Assembly: GCF_009914755.1 (NCBI RefSeq)
Contig: NC_060925.1
Source: the human T2T-CHM13v2.0 reference genome, Homo sapiens
Reading direction: 5' to 3' (one strand)
Length of the DNA: 64,000 nt
Part shown: piece by piece, positions 21,204 through 28,449 of the stretch
How positions within the stretch are numbered: the first letter of the stretch is position 1
Layout: each line of letters starts with the position of its first letter
The notes under the pieces: model-generated
The model's input: the letters and a program-made list of their open reading frames with translations, nothing else
The model's database searches: none
Told to the model about the DNA's origin: nothing
Position numbers and translations under genes: made by a program

Positions 21204-21399
21204 AAGTAACTTCGAGGAGAGTGAGAGAGGTGAAAATAGAAACCTTGTTTTTTTTAATGAAAGTTTTCAAAAGGAGAGAGAAGTGACAGAGGCAGAGGAA
21301 ACTGAAAGTCAGGTGATAGAGGGCATGCCTCTTGGTAACCGTAGCTGGAAAACAAATAGCAACCCAAAGTGGCCCGTCAGCCATTTTTTTTTTTTTTTC

Positions 21400-21557
21400 T
21401 TTTTTAAATTTTCATTTATTTATTTATTTATTTGTAAATAGAGATGAGGTCCCACTATGTCACCCAGGCTGCTCTTGAACTTCTGGGCTCAAGTGATCCT
21501 CCTGCCTCGGACTCCCAAAATGCTGGGATTACAGGTGTGAGCCACTACACTTAGCCT
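21400..21557 (-). repeat. Free left Alu monomer (FLAM-like) with (TAAA)n tail; lies inside the composite insertion
   Basis: Single-arm Alu sequence; on the - strand its tail has overlapping AATAAA hexamers followed by an A-run. Confidence 0.8.
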
Positions 21558-21824
21558 GGTCTTTTCAACTCAACCTGTTTTTTTTGTTTGTTTGTTTTTT
21601 GTTTTTAATTTTTTTTTTTATTATACTCTAAGTTTTAGGGTACATGTGCACATTGTGCAGGTTAGTTACATATGTATACATGTGCCATGCTGGTGCGCTG
21701 CACCCACTAACGTGTCATCTAGCATTAGGTATATCTCCCAATGCTATCCCTCCCCCCTCCCCCGAACCCACCACAGTCCCCAGAGTGTGATATTCCCCTT
21801 CCTGTGTCCATGTGATCTCATTGT

Positions 21825-24800
21825 TCAATTCCCACCTATGAGTGAGAATATGCGGTGTTTGGTTTTTTGTTCTTGCGATAGTTTACTGAGAATGATGGTT
21901 TCCAATTTCATCCATGTCCCTACAAAGGACATGAACTCATCATTTTTTATGGCTGCATAGTATTCCATGGCGTATATGTGCCACATTTTGTTAATCCAGT
22001 CTATCATTGTTGGACATTTGGGTTGGTTCCAAGTCTTTGCTATTGTGAATAGTGCCGCAATAAACATACGTGTGCATGTGTCTTTATAGCAGCATGATTT
22101 ATAGTCCTTTGGGTATATACCCAGTAATGGGATGGCTGGGTCAAATGGTATTTCTAGTTCTAGATCCCTGAGGAATCGCCACACTGACTTCCACAATGGT
22201 TGAACTAGTTTACAGTCCCACCAACAGTGTAAAAGTGTTCCTATTTCTCCACATCCTCTCCAGCACCTGTTGTTTCCTGACTTTTTAATGATTGCCATTC
22301 TAACTGGTGTGAGATGATATCTCATAGTGGTTTTGATTTGCATTTCTCTGATGGCCAGTGATGATGAGCATTTTTTCATGTGTTTTTTGGCTGCATAAAT
22401 GTCTTCTTTTGAGAAGTGTCTGTTCATGTCCTTCGCCCACTTTTTGATGGGGTTGTTTGTTTTTTTCTTGTAAATTTGTTTGAGTTCATTGTAGATTCTG
22501 GATATTAGCCCTTTGTCAGATGAGTAGGTTGCGAAAATTTTCTCCCATGTTGTAGGTTGCCTGTTCACTCTGATGGTAGTTTCTTTTGCTGTGCAGAAGC
22601 TCTTTAGTTTAATTAGATCCCATTTGTCAATTTTGGCTTTTGTTGCCATTGCTTTTGGTGTTTTGGACATGAAGTCCTTGCCCACGCCTATGTCCTGAAT
22701 GGTAATGCCTAGGTTTTCTTCTAGGGTTTTTATGGTTTTAGGTCTAACGTTTAAATCTTTAATCCATCTTGAATTGATTTTTGTATAAGGTGTAAGGAAG
22801 GGATCCAGTTTCAGCTTTCTACATATGGCTAGCCAGTTTTCCCAGCACCATTTATTAAATAGGGAATCCTTTCCCCATTGCTTGTTTTTCTCAGGTTTGT
22901 CAAAGATCAGATAGTTGTAGATATGCGGCATTATTTCTGAGGGCTCTGTTCTGTTCCATTGATCTATATCTCTGTTTTGGTACCAGTACCAGGCTGTTTT
23001 GGTTACTGTAGCCTTGTAGTATAGTTTGAAGTCAGGTAGTGTGATGCCTCCAGCTTTGTTCTTTTGGCTTAGGATTGACTTGGCGATGCGGGCTCTTATT
23101 TGGTTCCATATGAACTTTAAAGTAGTTTTTTCCAATTCTGGGAAGAAAGTCATTGGTAGCTTGATGGGGATGGCATTGAATCTGTAAATTACCTTGGGCA
23201 GTATGGCCATTTTCACGATATTGATTCTTCCTACCCATGAGCATGGAATGTTCTTCCATTTGTTTGTGTCCTCTTTTATTTCCTTGAGCAGTGGTTTGTA
23301 GTTCTCCTTGAAGAGGTCCTTCACATCCCTTTTAAGTTGGATTCCTAGGTATTTTATTCTCTTTGAAGCAATTGTGAATGGGAGTTCACTCATGATTTGG
23401 CTCTCTGTTTGTCTGTTGTTGCTGTATAAGAATGCTTGTGATTTTTGTACATTGATTTTGTATCCTGAGACTTTGCTGAAGTTGCTTATCAGCTTAAGGA
23501 GATTTTGGGCTGAGACGATGGGGTTTTCTAGATAAACAATCATGTCGTCTGCAAACAGGGACAATTTGACTTCCTCTTTTCCTAATTGAATACCCTTTAT
23601 TTCCTTCTCCTGCCTGATTGCCCTGGCCAGAACTTCCAACACTATGTTGAATAAGAGCGGTGAGAGAGGGCATCCCTGTCTTGTGCCAGTTTTCAAAGGG
23701 AATGCTTCCAGTTTTTGCCCATTCAGTATGATATTGGCTGTGGGTTTGTCACAGATAGCTCTTATTATTTTGAAATACGTCCCATCAATACCTAATTTAT
23801 TGAGAGTTTTTAGCATGAAGGGTTGTTGAATTTTGTCAAAGGCTTTTTCTGCATCTATTGAGATAATCATGTGGTTTTTGTCTTTGGCTCTGTTTATATG
23901 CTGGATTACATTTATTGATTTGCGTATATTGAACCAGCCTTGCATCCCAGGGATGAAGCCCACTTGATCATGGTGGATAAGCTTTTTGATGTGCTGCTGG
24001 ATTTGGTTTGCCAGTATTTTATTGAGGATTTTTGCATCAATGTTCATCAAGGATATTGGTCTAAAATTCTCTTTTTTGGTTGTTTCTCTGCCCGGCTTTG
24101 GTATCAGAATGATGCTGGCCTCATAAAATGAGTTAGGGAGGATTCCTTCTTTTTCTATTGATTGGAATAGTTTCAGAAGGAATGGTACCAGTTCCTCCTT
24201 GTACCTCTGGTAGAATTCGGCTGTGAATCCATCTGGTCCTGGACTCTTTTTGGTTGGTAAACTATTGATTATTGCCACAATTTCAGAGCCTGTTATTGGT
24301 CTATTCAGAGATTCAACTTCTTCCTGGTTTAGTCTTGGGAGAGTGTATGTGTCGAGGAATGTATCCATTTCTTCTAGATTTTCTAGTTTATTTGCGTAGA
24401 GGTGTTTGTAGTATTCTCTGATGGTAGTTTGTATTTCTGTGGGATCGGTGGTGATATCCCTTTTATCATTTTTTATTGTGTCTATTTGATTCTTCTCTCT
24501 TTTTTTCTTTATTAGTCTTGCTAGCGGTCTATCAATTTTGTTGATCCTTTCAAAAAAACCAGCTCCTGGATTCATTGATTTTTTGAAGGGTTTTTTGTGT
24601 CTCTATTTCCTTCAGTACTGCTCTGATTTTAGTTATTTCTTGCCTTCTGCTAGCTTTTGAATGTGTTTGCTCTTGCTTTTCTAGTTCTTTTAATTGTGAT
24701 GTTAGGGTGTCAATTTTGGATCTTTCCTGCTTTCTCTTGTAGGCATTTAGTGCTATAAATTTCCCTCTACACACTGCTTTGAATGCGTCCCAGAGATTCT

Positions 24801-27188: not shown

Positions 27189-27404
27189 ATGGCGGGCGCC
27201 CCTCCCCCAGCCTCGTTGCCGCCTTGCAGTTTGATCTCAGACTGCTGTGCTAGCAATCAGCGAGATTCCGTGGGCGTAGGACCCTCTGAGCCAGGTGTGG
27301 GATATAGTCTCGTGGTGCGCCGTTTCTTAAGCCGGTCTGAAAAGCGCAATATTCGGGTGGGAGTGACCCGATTTTCCAGGTGCGTCTGTCACCCCTTTCT
27401 TTGA
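27189..27404 (+). CDS. L1 ORF0 (71 aa, antisense ORF of the primate L1 5'UTR), intact, with splice donors after 27294 and 27379
   Basis: MAGAPPPASLPPCSLISDCCASNQRDSVGVGPSEPGVGYSLVVRRFLSRSEKRNIRVGVTRFSRCVCHPFL*; donors CAG|GTGTGG and CAG|GTGCGT. Confidence 0.85.
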   Translation: MAGAPPPASLPPCSLISDCCASNQRDSVGVGPSEPGVGYSLVVRRFLSRSEKRNIRVGVTRFSRCVCHPFL

Positions 27405-27700
27405 CTCGGAAAGGGAACTCCCTGACCCCTTGCGCTTCCCAGGTGAGGCAATGCCTCGCCCTGCTTCGGCTTGCGCACGGTGCGCACACACACTGGCCTG
27501 CGCCCACTGTCTGGCACTCCCTAGTGAGATGAACCCGGTACCTCAGATGGAAATGCAGAAATCACCCGTCTTCTGCGTCGCTCACGCTGGGAGCTGTAGA
27601 CCGGAGCTGTTCCTATTCGGCCATCTTGGCTCCTCCCTCGGAATCTATTTCTTAAACACAGACATCAGAAGCTTAACCAACTCAACCTACTTCCTTGCAG

Positions 27701-27798
27701 GAGTGAGTCCGTGCTGCTGCACATGCCCCAGCCTGTGAATCCAGAGCTCACTACAGGGCGCATCACAGGACTGGTGGACAGGCTCAACCACTTCCGAG
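27701..27798 (+). pseudogene. Isolated 98-nt internal exon of a TRIM43/TRIM49/TRIM51-family gene (linker preceding the B30.2/SPRY domain)
   Basis: Acceptor CTACTTCCTTGCAG|G and donor GAG|GTGAGT. Translates (phase 2 to 1) as (R)[32 protein letters not shown], closely matching recalled TRIM43/49 sequence [11 protein letters not shown](V/L)NPEL(T/S)AGPITGL..RLN.FR. Confidence 0.85.
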
Positions 27799-28449
27799 GT
27801 GAGTGTCACAATTTTTCTTAAACAAAGCTACTGCTCTTTGCTTTGTGAAGTGGTAATCCCTGTTCCTGGCCCGGTGGGAAAACATACCAGTAGCGTGCTG
27901 GGAATCTAATGTGGTGAGAACGTTTTACTGGGGGCGCACAAAGGAGGAAAATATTCCAGACATGCTAAGGCTAAGAATGGCTCCCCAGAAAACGGATACC
28001 TGAGAAAAGGGAGAATCAATTTTGATTTGCAGATACTCTTATGTTTTCATTAATTCCTGCTGGTACATCCATTACATAACTCTAGGTCAAGAAGAGAATT
28101 TGTATATCTGTTGGAAAACCTTTAGCCAGAGAAATTAAAGATGATATCAAATGAGTCACTGTGCTAAGGAGAAGCAACCAAGGAACTCCAAAATTAAACC
28201 CAGCCCTGCTTTCTCTGCTTTTTCTTTCACAGTTTTGGATTCCATGTTTCCAAAGTAATCTTAGTCTTTTAAATTCCTAAGAGTCATTAATCTGTTTTAG
28301 GAACAATATTAAAATTGTATAATTAGAATTTAAAACATCACAAACTATTATTAAATCAATAGTTAGGTTTTTCCAAATACACATCTAGTGTTTAACTGTC
28401 CTCTAGTCTTATGAACTGTTTCTCTATTTCTGTTTAATATGAATAGAAG

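What the first reader, a model, noticed from the sequence alone, without database searches (positions are those of the whole stretch)
21383..27819. Nested insertion: an L1HS plus flanking TRIM-locus DNA with two concentric TSD pairs, suggesting a multi-generation 5'+3' transduction
Seen: the L1 has no TSD at its own ends. An inner 11-bp duplication CAACTCAACCT lies at 21566-21576 (next to the poly(T)) and at 27678-27688. Removing the sequence between them rebuilds a continuous acceptor tract (GGTCTTTTCAACTCAACCTACTTCCTTGCAG) linking the FLAM to the TRIM exon. An outer pair bounds everything: A-T15-CTT at 21383-21401 and ATTTTTCTT|AA at 27811-27819. The latter is a good L1 endonuclease site, and the left copy follows AATAAA repeats in the FLAM tail on the - strand. 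Known: L1 mobilises flanking DNA by 3' and, more rarely, 5' transduction. Inference: a source L1 in a TRIM-family intron was copied here with ~170 nt of 5' flank and ~180 nt of 3' flank. Alternatively a ~330-bp orphan TRIM fragment inserted first and the L1 landed inside it.
Basis: partly seen in the sequence, partly recalled or inferred. Interest (0 to 1): 0.88.

Follow-up and report, generated by a model that had tools for sequence, protein, structure and literature searches.

The report
L1 insertion carrying two foreign flanks
A young full-length L1 retrotransposon landed in the embigin pseudogene EMBP1 carrying a piece of a TRIM gene on one side and a piece of chromosome 15 on the other, and deleted about 590 bases including an exon as it went in; it is a rare combination of known L1 behaviours, not a new mechanism.

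Summary
The stated features are at the stated coordinates, but neither repeat pair is a target-site duplication (TSD).

- **Insert and deletion.** Against EMB on chr5, window 21388-27808 (6421 bp) is an insert. It replaces 592 bp that include EMB exon 2, so the predicted empty site does not exist.
- **Left junction.** It sits at CCATTTT/AT, an L1-endonuclease-like nick site, followed by a T run. This fits one target-primed insertion with a target-site deletion.
- **Order on the L1 strand.** From 5' to 3':
  - a 2-nt filler;
  - 167 bp of a TRIM43/48/49/51/64/77-clade intron-exon-intron piece, 98% identical to chr11q14.3 copies;
  - a 6020-bp L1HS with the pre-Ta ACG motif, ORF1 open and ORF2 split;
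  - an interrupted 43-nt A tail;
  - about 186 bp of a chr15 locus holding an Alu left monomer (FLAM), ending about 20 nt after four AATAAA;
  - a second A tail.
- **Flanks.** They come from unrelated chromosomes, not one TRIM locus.
- **The 11-mer.** It is native to both donors and lies 38 bp from the L1 5' end.
- **Donors.** In this assembly 8 of 8 TRIM sites and the chr15 site lack an L1.

Best reading: 5' plus 3' transduction over two source loci. It is a new member of known kinds; interest is modest.

The parts
20371..21387 (+). Left flank homologous to EMB intron 1 on chr5. It ends in CCATTTT, which in EMB is followed by ATCTTC, giving an L1-endonuclease-like nick site TTTT/AT on the + strand.
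   Evidence: 93% identity to chr5:51248862-51247844; junction read; endonuclease consensus 5'-TTTTT/AA and variants quoted from PMC7026601.
21388..21394 (-). Second (outer) A tail of the insertion, within the T15 run 21384-21398. The first 4 T are shared with EMB. The last 0-4 T may belong to the chr15 piece, so 7-11 A were added.
   Evidence: Three-way comparison of window, EMB and chr15a.
21395..21580 (-). chr15-derived segment, read as a 3' transduction. It holds an Alu left monomer (FLAM, about 21400-21558 with its A-rich tail and four AATAAA at 21415-21432), then GGTCTTTT, the 11-mer and GTTT.
   Evidence: 96-97% identity to chr15:28932654-28932843 (2 substitutions plus one AAAA indel) and 82-83% to a second copy at chr15:28936022. 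FLAM aligns to positions 15-135 of the neighbouring Alu at 74%.
21566..21576 (.). Left copy of the 11-mer CAACTCAACCT. It is native chr15 flank sequence.
21577..21619 (-). Inner, interrupted A-rich tail of the L1 (43 nt with C and T interruptions). Its last 4 nt (GTTT on the + strand) are also matched by chr15.
21620..27639 (-). Full-length L1HS body, 6020 bp. ORF1 is open (25717-26733, 338 aa). ORF2 is split into 367 aa (24550-25653) and 916 aa (21825-24575). The 3'UTR trinucleotide ACG is at 21711-21713 (minus strand).
   Evidence: ORFs; the 5'UTR is 99% identical to the 39 other copies scored (40 rows with the window itself, of 3678 candidates), and all end within 5 nt of 27639; papers call it the intronic L1HS of EMBP1. 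ACG is diagnostic of pre-Ta; its position in the 3'UTR is recalled.
27640..27806 (+). 167-bp TRIM piece, antisense to the L1. It comprises 61 nt of intron with the acceptor, exon 27701-27798 (open frame [32 protein letters not shown]) and 8 nt of the next intron (GTGAGTGT). It is read as a 5' transduction.
   Evidence: 98.2% identity to chr11:89807567 and chr11:89876633, and 94-97% to six further loci on chr11 and chr2. Translation. Paralogues carry a RING/B-box exon upstream and a SPRY exon downstream.
27640..27653 (.). GGAATCTATTTCTT, followed by AAAC. This is the candidate 14-nt TSD (copy next to the L1 5' end) of a source L1 inserted in the TRIM intron at a TCTT/AA site. This is an inference.
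   Evidence: Sequence. The empty sites in the paralogues read ...CTGTT|GGAATCTATTTCTT|AAAC.
27678..27688 (.). Right copy of the 11-mer. It is native TRIM intron sequence.
27807..27808 (.). CA, a 2-nt filler at the 5' junction, found in neither TRIM nor EMB.
27809..28194 (+). Right flank homologous to EMB intron. In EMB it lies 592 bp from the left flank.
   Evidence: 96.4% identity to chr5:51247251-51246866.

Best explanation
One L1 target-primed reverse transcription event put a 6.4-kb RNA copy into intron 1 of the EMB duplicate EMBP1.

**The event**
- The + strand was nicked at CCATTTT/AT.
- Its T's primed on the poly(A) of a read-through L1HS (pre-Ta) transcript.
- That transcript ended about 20 nt past the AATAAA repeats of an Alu left monomer lying 3' of a source L1 at a chr15:28.93-Mb-type site. 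This is the 3' transduction.
- Reverse transcription ran through the whole L1 and on into 167 nt of TRIM-gene DNA lying 5' of the element. This is the 5' transduction, antisense to the TRIM gene.
- The 5' end was joined 592 bp away with a 2-nt filler. No TSD was made, and the EMB exon-2 homologue was deleted.

**Why two source loci are needed**
The two flanks come from different chromosomes. The 14 nt next to the L1 5' end look like a TSD at a TCTT/AA site in the TRIM intron. The simplest history is therefore two-step:
1. An L1 at the chr15 site read through into the FLAM and inserted into a TRIM43/49/64-clade intron.
2. That copy was then transcribed from about 167 nt or more upstream, through the same downstream poly(A) site, and inserted into EMBP1.

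The reverse order (TRIM, then chr15, then EMBP1) is also possible.

**Shown versus inferred**
- Shown: the composition, the breakpoints, the deletion, and the origins of the pieces.
- Inferred: an RNA intermediate, the order of steps, and that the 11-mer shared by the two flanks is chance.
For: **Deletion and nick site**
- EMB on chr5 is colinear with the window up to 21387 and again from 27809.
- The 592 bp between these points in EMB encode embigin residues 38-65 (E 4.9e-13; frame).
- EMB reads CCATTTT|ATCTTC at the left breakpoint. This matches the endonuclease consensus quoted.

**3' transduction**
- There are two A tracts.
- Between them, window 21395-21583 matches chr15:28932654-28932843 with 2 substitutions and one indel.
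- Homology stops in the A run 20 nt after the last of four AATAAA.
- This is the anatomy of 3' transductions described in PMC4859970 (passages).

**5' piece**
- Window 27640-27806 is 98.2% identical to two chr11q14.3 loci and 94-97% to six more.
- It starts exactly where the L1 ends. The 39 other L1 5'UTR copies scored all end within 5 nt of 27639.
- The paralogues are TRIM genes: RING, B-box and SPRY hits above Pfam cut-offs.
- They lie in the three regions that PMC3228819 gives for the TRIM43/48/49/51/64/77 clade, which is also copy-number variable in people.

**Age**
- The insert-to-donor identities of 98-99% exceed the EMB-to-EMBP1 identities of 92-96%. The insertion is therefore younger than the duplication.
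- The L1 carries ACG, the pre-Ta marker.
Against: - Neither inferred progenitor is present in this assembly. The chr15 site is an intact empty site, and 8 of 8 closest TRIM loci have no L1 or FLAM within 1.5 kb.
- The L1/TRIM junction 30-mer and the FLAM/11-mer 29-mer, each with up to 3 mismatches, are unique to the window.
- The best TRIM match differs at 3 of 167 positions, so the exact donor paralogue is not identified.
- L1 5' transductions are described as almost non-existent, which lowers the prior.
- The pre-insertion state is inferred from the paralogue EMB, not from an orthologous empty allele. A separate earlier deletion cannot be strictly excluded.
- The 11-mer shared by both flanks (8 of 2000 shuffles, 38 of 2000 real pairs) has no role in this model and is left to chance.
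- The chr15 nick site (GTTT/GT, or TGTT/AA with one substitution) is only a moderate endonuclease match.
Confidence: 0.68

Rival explanations
1. The TRIM piece is not a 5' transduction. The source was one L1 at the chr15 site (3' transduction only). The 167 nt of TRIM antisense sequence were added at the 5' junction, either by a reverse-transcriptase template switch from the capped L1 RNA to another RNA, or as captured filler during end-joining linked to the 592-bp deletion.
For: - It needs only one source locus.
- The 5' junction is already irregular, with a deletion and a 2-nt filler.
- L1 5' transductions are very rare.
- No L1 sits in any of 8 of 8 TRIM loci.
Against: - The acceptor would have to be an antisense, unspliced TRIM transcript.
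- The junction falls exactly 14 nt from a TCTT/AA site, as a genuine L1 insertion with a 14-nt TSD would.
- There is no microhomology at the L1/TRIM junction.
- Chimeras of this type usually involve small nuclear RNAs (recalled, not checked here).
Confidence: 0.15
2. One reading: a source L1 in a TRIM-family intron was copied with both flanks from that one locus. The 11-mer would be the source's TSD, and ATTTTTCTT the TSD of the new insertion.
For: Both repeat pairs exist at the stated places. ATTTTTCTT/AA would be a good endonuclease site.
Against: - The FLAM flank maps to chr15 and the exon to chr11/chr2.
- EMB has 592 bp between the flanks.
- The C + T6 + AAA after the T run is identical to chr15a. 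The left 'CTT' is therefore donor sequence, and the model would also need T5 to expand to T15.
- 38 bp of contiguous TRIM intron separate the 11-mer from the L1.
Confidence: 0.03
3. Two separate insertions in place. Either a chimeric TRIM-FLAM fragment, or an orphan chr15 transduction, inserted into EMBP1 first. An L1 then landed inside or beside it.
For: The 11-mer pair superficially looks like a TSD of a second insertion.
Against: - It requires two hits within about 200 bp.
- A TRIM-FLAM hybrid exists nowhere else in the assembly.
- The 38 bp next to the L1 continue the TRIM sequence seamlessly, which a separately arriving L1 would not do.
- There is only one outer A tail and one nick site.
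Confidence: 0.05
4. A DNA-level event. The block was copied as DNA, by segmental duplication, gene conversion or templated break repair, from a locus where the TRIM piece, the L1 and the chr15 FLAM already lay together.
For: The window lies in pericentromeric 1p11.2, a duplication-rich setting. The TRIM clusters spawn duplications.
Against: - The block ends in an A tail at a TTTT/AT site, exactly at a polyadenylation distance from AATAAA.
- The other end is 167 nt from a full-length L1.
- No such donor locus exists in the assembly.
Confidence: 0.05

Closest known systems
L1 3' transduction (read-through to a downstream poly(A) signal)
   Same: Two A tracts; unique non-L1 DNA between them that maps to another chromosome; the segment ends about 20 nt after AATAAA. 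The anatomy is as described in PMC4859970.
   Different: The donor site on chr15 carries no L1 in this assembly. No sibling insertions with the same tag were found (in one search only 40 of 3051 candidates were scored).
L1 5' transduction (initiation upstream of the element)
   Same: Non-L1 DNA directly abuts an untruncated L1 5' end and maps elsewhere.
   Different: It is combined with a 3' transduction from a different chromosome. It carries a complete exon with both splice sites, antisense to the L1. The donor locus is not found filled (8 of 8 empty). For L1 only a handful of cases are reported.
L1 insertion-mediated (target-site) deletion
   Same: Endonuclease-like nick site, A tail, no TSD, and loss of target DNA (592 bp) at the 5' junction. 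It is described as a known class. Genome-wide totals for human-specific cases are in PMC6191304.
   Different: The deleted DNA includes the exon-2 homologue of a duplicated gene. The pre-insertion state is judged here from the paralogue EMB, not from an orthologue.
Serial transductions used to trace L1 lineages
   Same: Flanks from two loci imply at least two source positions. Serial 3' transductions are mentioned.
   Different: Here the two tags sit on opposite ends (5' and 3'), so their order cannot be read from nesting.
Chimeric retrocopies made by reverse-transcriptase template switching (recalled from memory: U6-L1 type chimeras; no paper opened here)
   Same: A foreign segment is joined exactly to the 5' end of a full-length L1 copy.
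   Different: The foreign segment is an antisense intron-exon-intron piece of a protein-coding gene, not a small RNA, and it lies next to a plausible TSD and nick site.

Membership tests
L1 insertion by target-primed reverse transcription | Ends in a poly(A) tract at an L1-endonuclease-like site (5'-TTTT/A) | tested here: met
   EMB reads CCATTTT/ATCTTC at the left breakpoint. The window continues with the T run. Consensus quoted.
L1 insertion by target-primed reverse transcription | Flanking target-site duplication | tested here: not met
   There is no duplication of EMB sequence at 21387/27809. Instead 592 bp of EMB are missing. This is the target-site-deletion variant.
L1HS, pre-Ta subset | ACG trinucleotide in the 3'UTR (ACA = Ta; GAG = L1PA2 or older) | tested here: met
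   ACG is at 21711-21713 on the minus strand. The diagnostic meaning comes from PMC7026601. That this is the diagnostic position is recalled. Papers call the element L1HS.
Retrotransposition-competent L1 | Both ORFs open | tested here: not met
   ORF1 is 338 aa and open. ORF2 is split into 367 and 916 aa, with the frames overlapping at 24550-24575.
L1 3' transduction | Two A tracts with unique downstream DNA ending after a poly(A) signal | tested here: met
L1 3' transduction | The transduced DNA lies directly 3' of an L1 at the donor locus | tested here: not met
   chr15:28932650 is an intact empty site in this assembly. Other haplotypes are not testable here.
L1 5' transduction | Unique DNA abutting a full-length 5' end that maps to another locus | tested here: met
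L1 5' transduction | The donor locus carries an L1 at that junction | tested here: not met
   0 of 8 closest TRIM loci have an L1 within 1.5 kb. The junction 30-mer is unique to the window. The clade is copy-number variable in people, so the donor may be missing from this haplotype.
Inner 11-mer as the TSD of the L1 | Copies directly flank the inserted element | tested here: not met
   The right copy is 38 bp from the L1 5' end. Those 38 bp are contiguous TRIM intron in 8 of 8 paralogues. The left copy is native chr15 sequence.
Outer pair as the TSD of the whole block | The empty site has one copy and is continuous | tested here: not met
   EMB has 592 bp between the flanks. The left 'CTT' belongs to the chr15 piece. 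The motif is not rare.
TRIM43/48/49/51/64/77 clade exon | Homologous exon lies between RING/B-box and SPRY exons in the paralogues, in the clade's genomic regions | tested here: met
   RING and B-box lie upstream and SPRY downstream in the chr2 copy. SPRY is present in two chr11 copies. All 39 hits apart from the window itself and EMB lie at chr2:96-97.5 Mb, chr11:49-55.8 Mb and chr11:89.7-90.0 Mb, the regions named in PMC3228819. The exact gene name was not determined.
Free left Alu monomer (FLAM) | Alu left arm only, with its own A-rich tail and TSD | tested here: met
   It aligns to Alu positions 15-135 at 74%. At chr15 it is flanked by GTCTTTTC on both sides and is absent from two older copies of the surrounding repeat.

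The most novel reading that the evidence does not exclude
This fixed L1HS would be the surviving tip of a two-step lineage (chr15 site, then a TRIM-clade intron, then EMBP1, or the reverse order). Both progenitors are absent from CHM13 and may still segregate in people as source elements that can be tracked by their tags. By 5' transduction the element delivered a complete TRIM exon with intact splice sites. That exon lies in the sense orientation of the host gene and directly downstream of the L1 antisense promoter, which would make it a natural case of exon shuffling by 5' transduction. A bolder variant: the 11-nt identity between the 3'-transduced RNA and the TRIM intron helped choose the integration site.
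Probability: 0.3. Interest if true: 0.55.

Novelty: new member of a known kind. Interest (0 to 1): 0.36.

Why it matters
**Lineage tracing.** The element combines, in one reference L1HS, three L1 side-effects that are usually seen one at a time:
- a 5' transduction, which is very rare for L1;
- a 3' transduction from another chromosome;
- an exon-removing target-site deletion.

The two tags give exact, testable predictions for two missing source elements: a chr15 site, and an intron of the copy-number-variable TRIM cluster. These could be looked up in pangenomes.

**Annotation.**
- EMBP1 lacks the EMB exon-2 homologue because of this event.
- An intact TRIM exon now sits next to an L1 promoter that the literature already reports as transcriptionally active in EMBP1.

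**Scope.** None of this changes what is known about how L1 works.

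Tried and rejected
- **Donor locus with all three pieces together.** Junction patterns with up to 3 mismatches found only the window. None of the 8 TRIM loci and neither chr15 copy carry an L1. 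A search with the chr15 right flank found only the empty site, its tandem paralogue and old repeat copies.
- **Parent or sibling by L1 body similarity.** Thirty-nine other copies at 99% were scored out of 3678 candidates. None lies in the TRIM clusters or at the chr15 site. This is not informative.
- **11-mer as microhomology.** I drew schemes for microhomology-primed second-strand synthesis, internal priming and template switching. Each either loses the 117 bp of TRIM beyond the 11-mer, loses the FLAM, or needs a 48-nt TSD at a non-endonuclease site. All were rejected as simple explanations (note).
- **11-mer as shared old repeat.** The chr15 flank is part of an old dispersed repeat, but it has no similarity to the TRIM intron beyond Alu hits.
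- **Prior 592-bp deletion followed by an insertion with TSD ATTTTTCTT.** This needs two events at one point, expansion of T5 to T15, and a chance match of C + T6 + AAA to chr15a. Rejected.
- **Pfam on the chr11:89.81-Mb copy.** It gave only a sub-threshold SPRY hit, because that copy's SPRY frame is cut short. Other paralogues were used instead.
- **Literature.**
  - EMBP1 with LINE-1: 8 papers were listed and passages of 2 were read. They note the intronic L1HS as a promoter or transcript source, not its flanks or the deletion.
  - PMC1179734 (L1 insertion-mediated deletions) is not held.
  - I therefore cannot say the structure is unpublished.

Full report
**What is in the sequence**

The L1 lies on the minus strand.
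- Its body runs from 21620 to 27639 (6020 bp).
- An interrupted A-rich tail of 43 nt follows at 21577-21619.
- ORF1 is open (338 aa). ORF2 is split into 367 and 916 aa.
- The 5'UTR is 99% identical to the 39 other copies scored, of 3678 candidates. All of them end within 5 nt of 27639, so the element is untruncated and young.
- The 3'UTR carries ACG at 21711-21713. PMC7026601 gives ACG as the pre-Ta marker of L1Hs (passages). That this is the diagnostic position is my recollection.
- Two papers refer to 'the intronic L1HS of EMBP1' (passages).

- The 11-mer occurs twice in the window against 0.09 expected.
- The outer motif is common: 11 matches with up to 1 mismatch against 7.15 expected.

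**The target site**

The assembly's EMB locus on chr5 is colinear with the window up to 21387 and again from 27809.
- Between those points EMB has 592 bp that the window lacks.
- Those 592 bp hold an exon whose translation matches embigin residues 38-65 (for the frame, E 4.9e-13, PDB 7yr5_B).
- EMB reads CCATTTT|ATCTTC at the left breakpoint. A + strand nick there leaves T's that can prime on poly(A), and this fits the endonuclease consensus quoted.
- The right junction is GTGAGTGT-CA-CAATTTTTC. It has a 2-nt filler and no microhomology.
- This is the pattern of an L1 insertion with a target-site deletion, a known class (totals for human-specific cases).

I considered a prior deletion followed by an insertion with TSD ATTTTTCTT and rejected it. 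The C + T6 + AAATTTTC after the T run is identical to the chr15 donor. That model would also need T5 to grow to T15 and two events at one point.

**The 3' piece**

Window 21395-21583 matches chr15:28932654-28932843 with two substitutions and one AAAA indel. It matches a tandem paralogue 3.4 kb away at 82-83%.

The piece comprises:
- an Alu left monomer, aligning to Alu positions 15-135 at 74%, with its A-rich tail;
- then GGTCTTTT, CAACTCAACCT and GTTT.

Further observations:
- At chr15 the monomer has its own TSD, GTCTTTTC, and sits in an old dispersed repeat whose chr1 copies lack it.
- Homology to chr15 stops in the A run about 20 nt after the last of four AATAAA. A further 7-11 A's then lead into the EMB T's.
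- An inner interrupted tail, unique downstream DNA, a poly(A) signal and a second tail make the textbook 3' transduction.
- The chr15 site itself is an intact empty site in this assembly.

**The 5' piece**

Window 27640-27806 (167 bp) is 98.2% identical to two mirror-image loci at chr11:89.81 and 89.88 Mb. It is 94-97% identical to six more loci on chr11 and chr2, and more distantly similar to about 30 others.

The piece comprises:
- the last 61 nt of an intron;
- a 98-nt exon with an open frame;
- 8 nt of the next intron.

In the paralogues this exon lies between a RING/B-box exon and a SPRY exon. The loci fall in the three regions that PMC3228819 assigns to the TRIM43/48/49/51/64/77 clade. 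That paper also reports the clade as copy-number variable in people (abstract and passages).

The TRIM piece starts exactly at the L1 5' end. Its first 14 nt, GGAATCTATTTCTT, are followed by AAAC. An L1 inserted at a TCTT/AA site with a 14-nt TSD would look like this. That reading is my inference.

None of the 8 closest loci carries an L1 or the FLAM within 1.5 kb. The junction 30-mer is unique to the window.

**The 11-mer**

- It is native to the TRIM intron in 8 of 8 paralogues.
- It is also native to the chr15 flank. One copy has a single mismatch, and the other has the same word with an AAAA insertion.
- It is 38 bp from the L1 5' end, and those 38 bp are contiguous TRIM sequence. It therefore cannot be the L1's TSD.
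- A shared word of this length between the two pieces arises in 8 of 2000 shuffles and 38 of 2000 random real pairs.
- I could not draw a simple priming or template-switch scheme that uses it and still yields the observed order.
- I treat it as chance with about 60% weight and flag it as unexplained.

**Mechanism**

The best reading is one retrotransposition event into EMBP1. The template was an L1HS transcript that began at least 167 nt upstream of the element, in TRIM DNA, and ended at the FLAM poly(A) site.

The two flanks come from different chromosomes, so the source copy must itself have been a transduction product. The more economical order needs one read-through and one upstream start:
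1. An L1 at the chr15 site inserts into the TRIM intron, carrying the FLAM tag.
2. That copy then inserts into EMBP1.

The reverse order needs two upstream starts, or a truncated longer one.

The insert-to-donor identities (98-99%) exceed the EMB-to-EMBP1 identity (92-96%). The event is therefore younger than the EMB duplication.

**Comparison and novelty**

Every component is a known L1 behaviour. [quoted passage not shown]

My literature searches found the element mentioned only as a promoter or transcript source. I therefore do not claim that the structure is unpublished.

No ape or other human assemblies were available. Human specificity, the true empty allele and the progenitors remain untested.

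**Verdict**

This is a new member of known kinds, of modest interest.

Noticed in passing
window 28195-29389: About 1.2 kb, including a (GT)n run at 28450-28481, has no counterpart in EMB on chr5. Apart from its Alu end it has no other copy in the assembly. It was either lost from EMB or gained by EMBP1.
   Followed up: partly
window 27701-27798 with 26708-27639: The transduced TRIM exon keeps its acceptor and donor sites and lies on the EMBP1 sense strand just downstream of the L1 5'UTR read in antisense. PMC10778729 proposes this L1HS's antisense promoter as an alternative EMBP1 promoter. PMC10760525 reports a cryptic start site and ORF1-like peptides from this L1HS. Use of the TRIM exon is untested. 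The RefSeq 'enhancer' at 26708-27417 is L1 5'UTR.
   Followed up: partly
L011 and L012 (chr15:28.931-28.938 Mb); L030 (chr1:221.2 Mb); L032 (chr1:85.2 Mb): The chr15 donor region is a 3.4-kb-spaced tandem pair (83-86% alike) inside an old dispersed repeat. The chr1 copies show the FLAM-free state and define the FLAM's TSD, GTCTTTTC.
   Followed up: partly
L028:795-1142 (chr11:89.809 Mb): The TRIM paralogue closest to the transduced piece has a SPRY frame cut short (115 aa, sub-threshold Pfam hit). It may be a pseudogene copy. Other paralogues keep 170-175-aa SPRY frames.
   Followed up: partly
window 24550-24575: The two ORF2 frames of the L1 overlap here, next to a homopolymer run. The element as assembled is not coding-competent for ORF2.
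   Followed up: no
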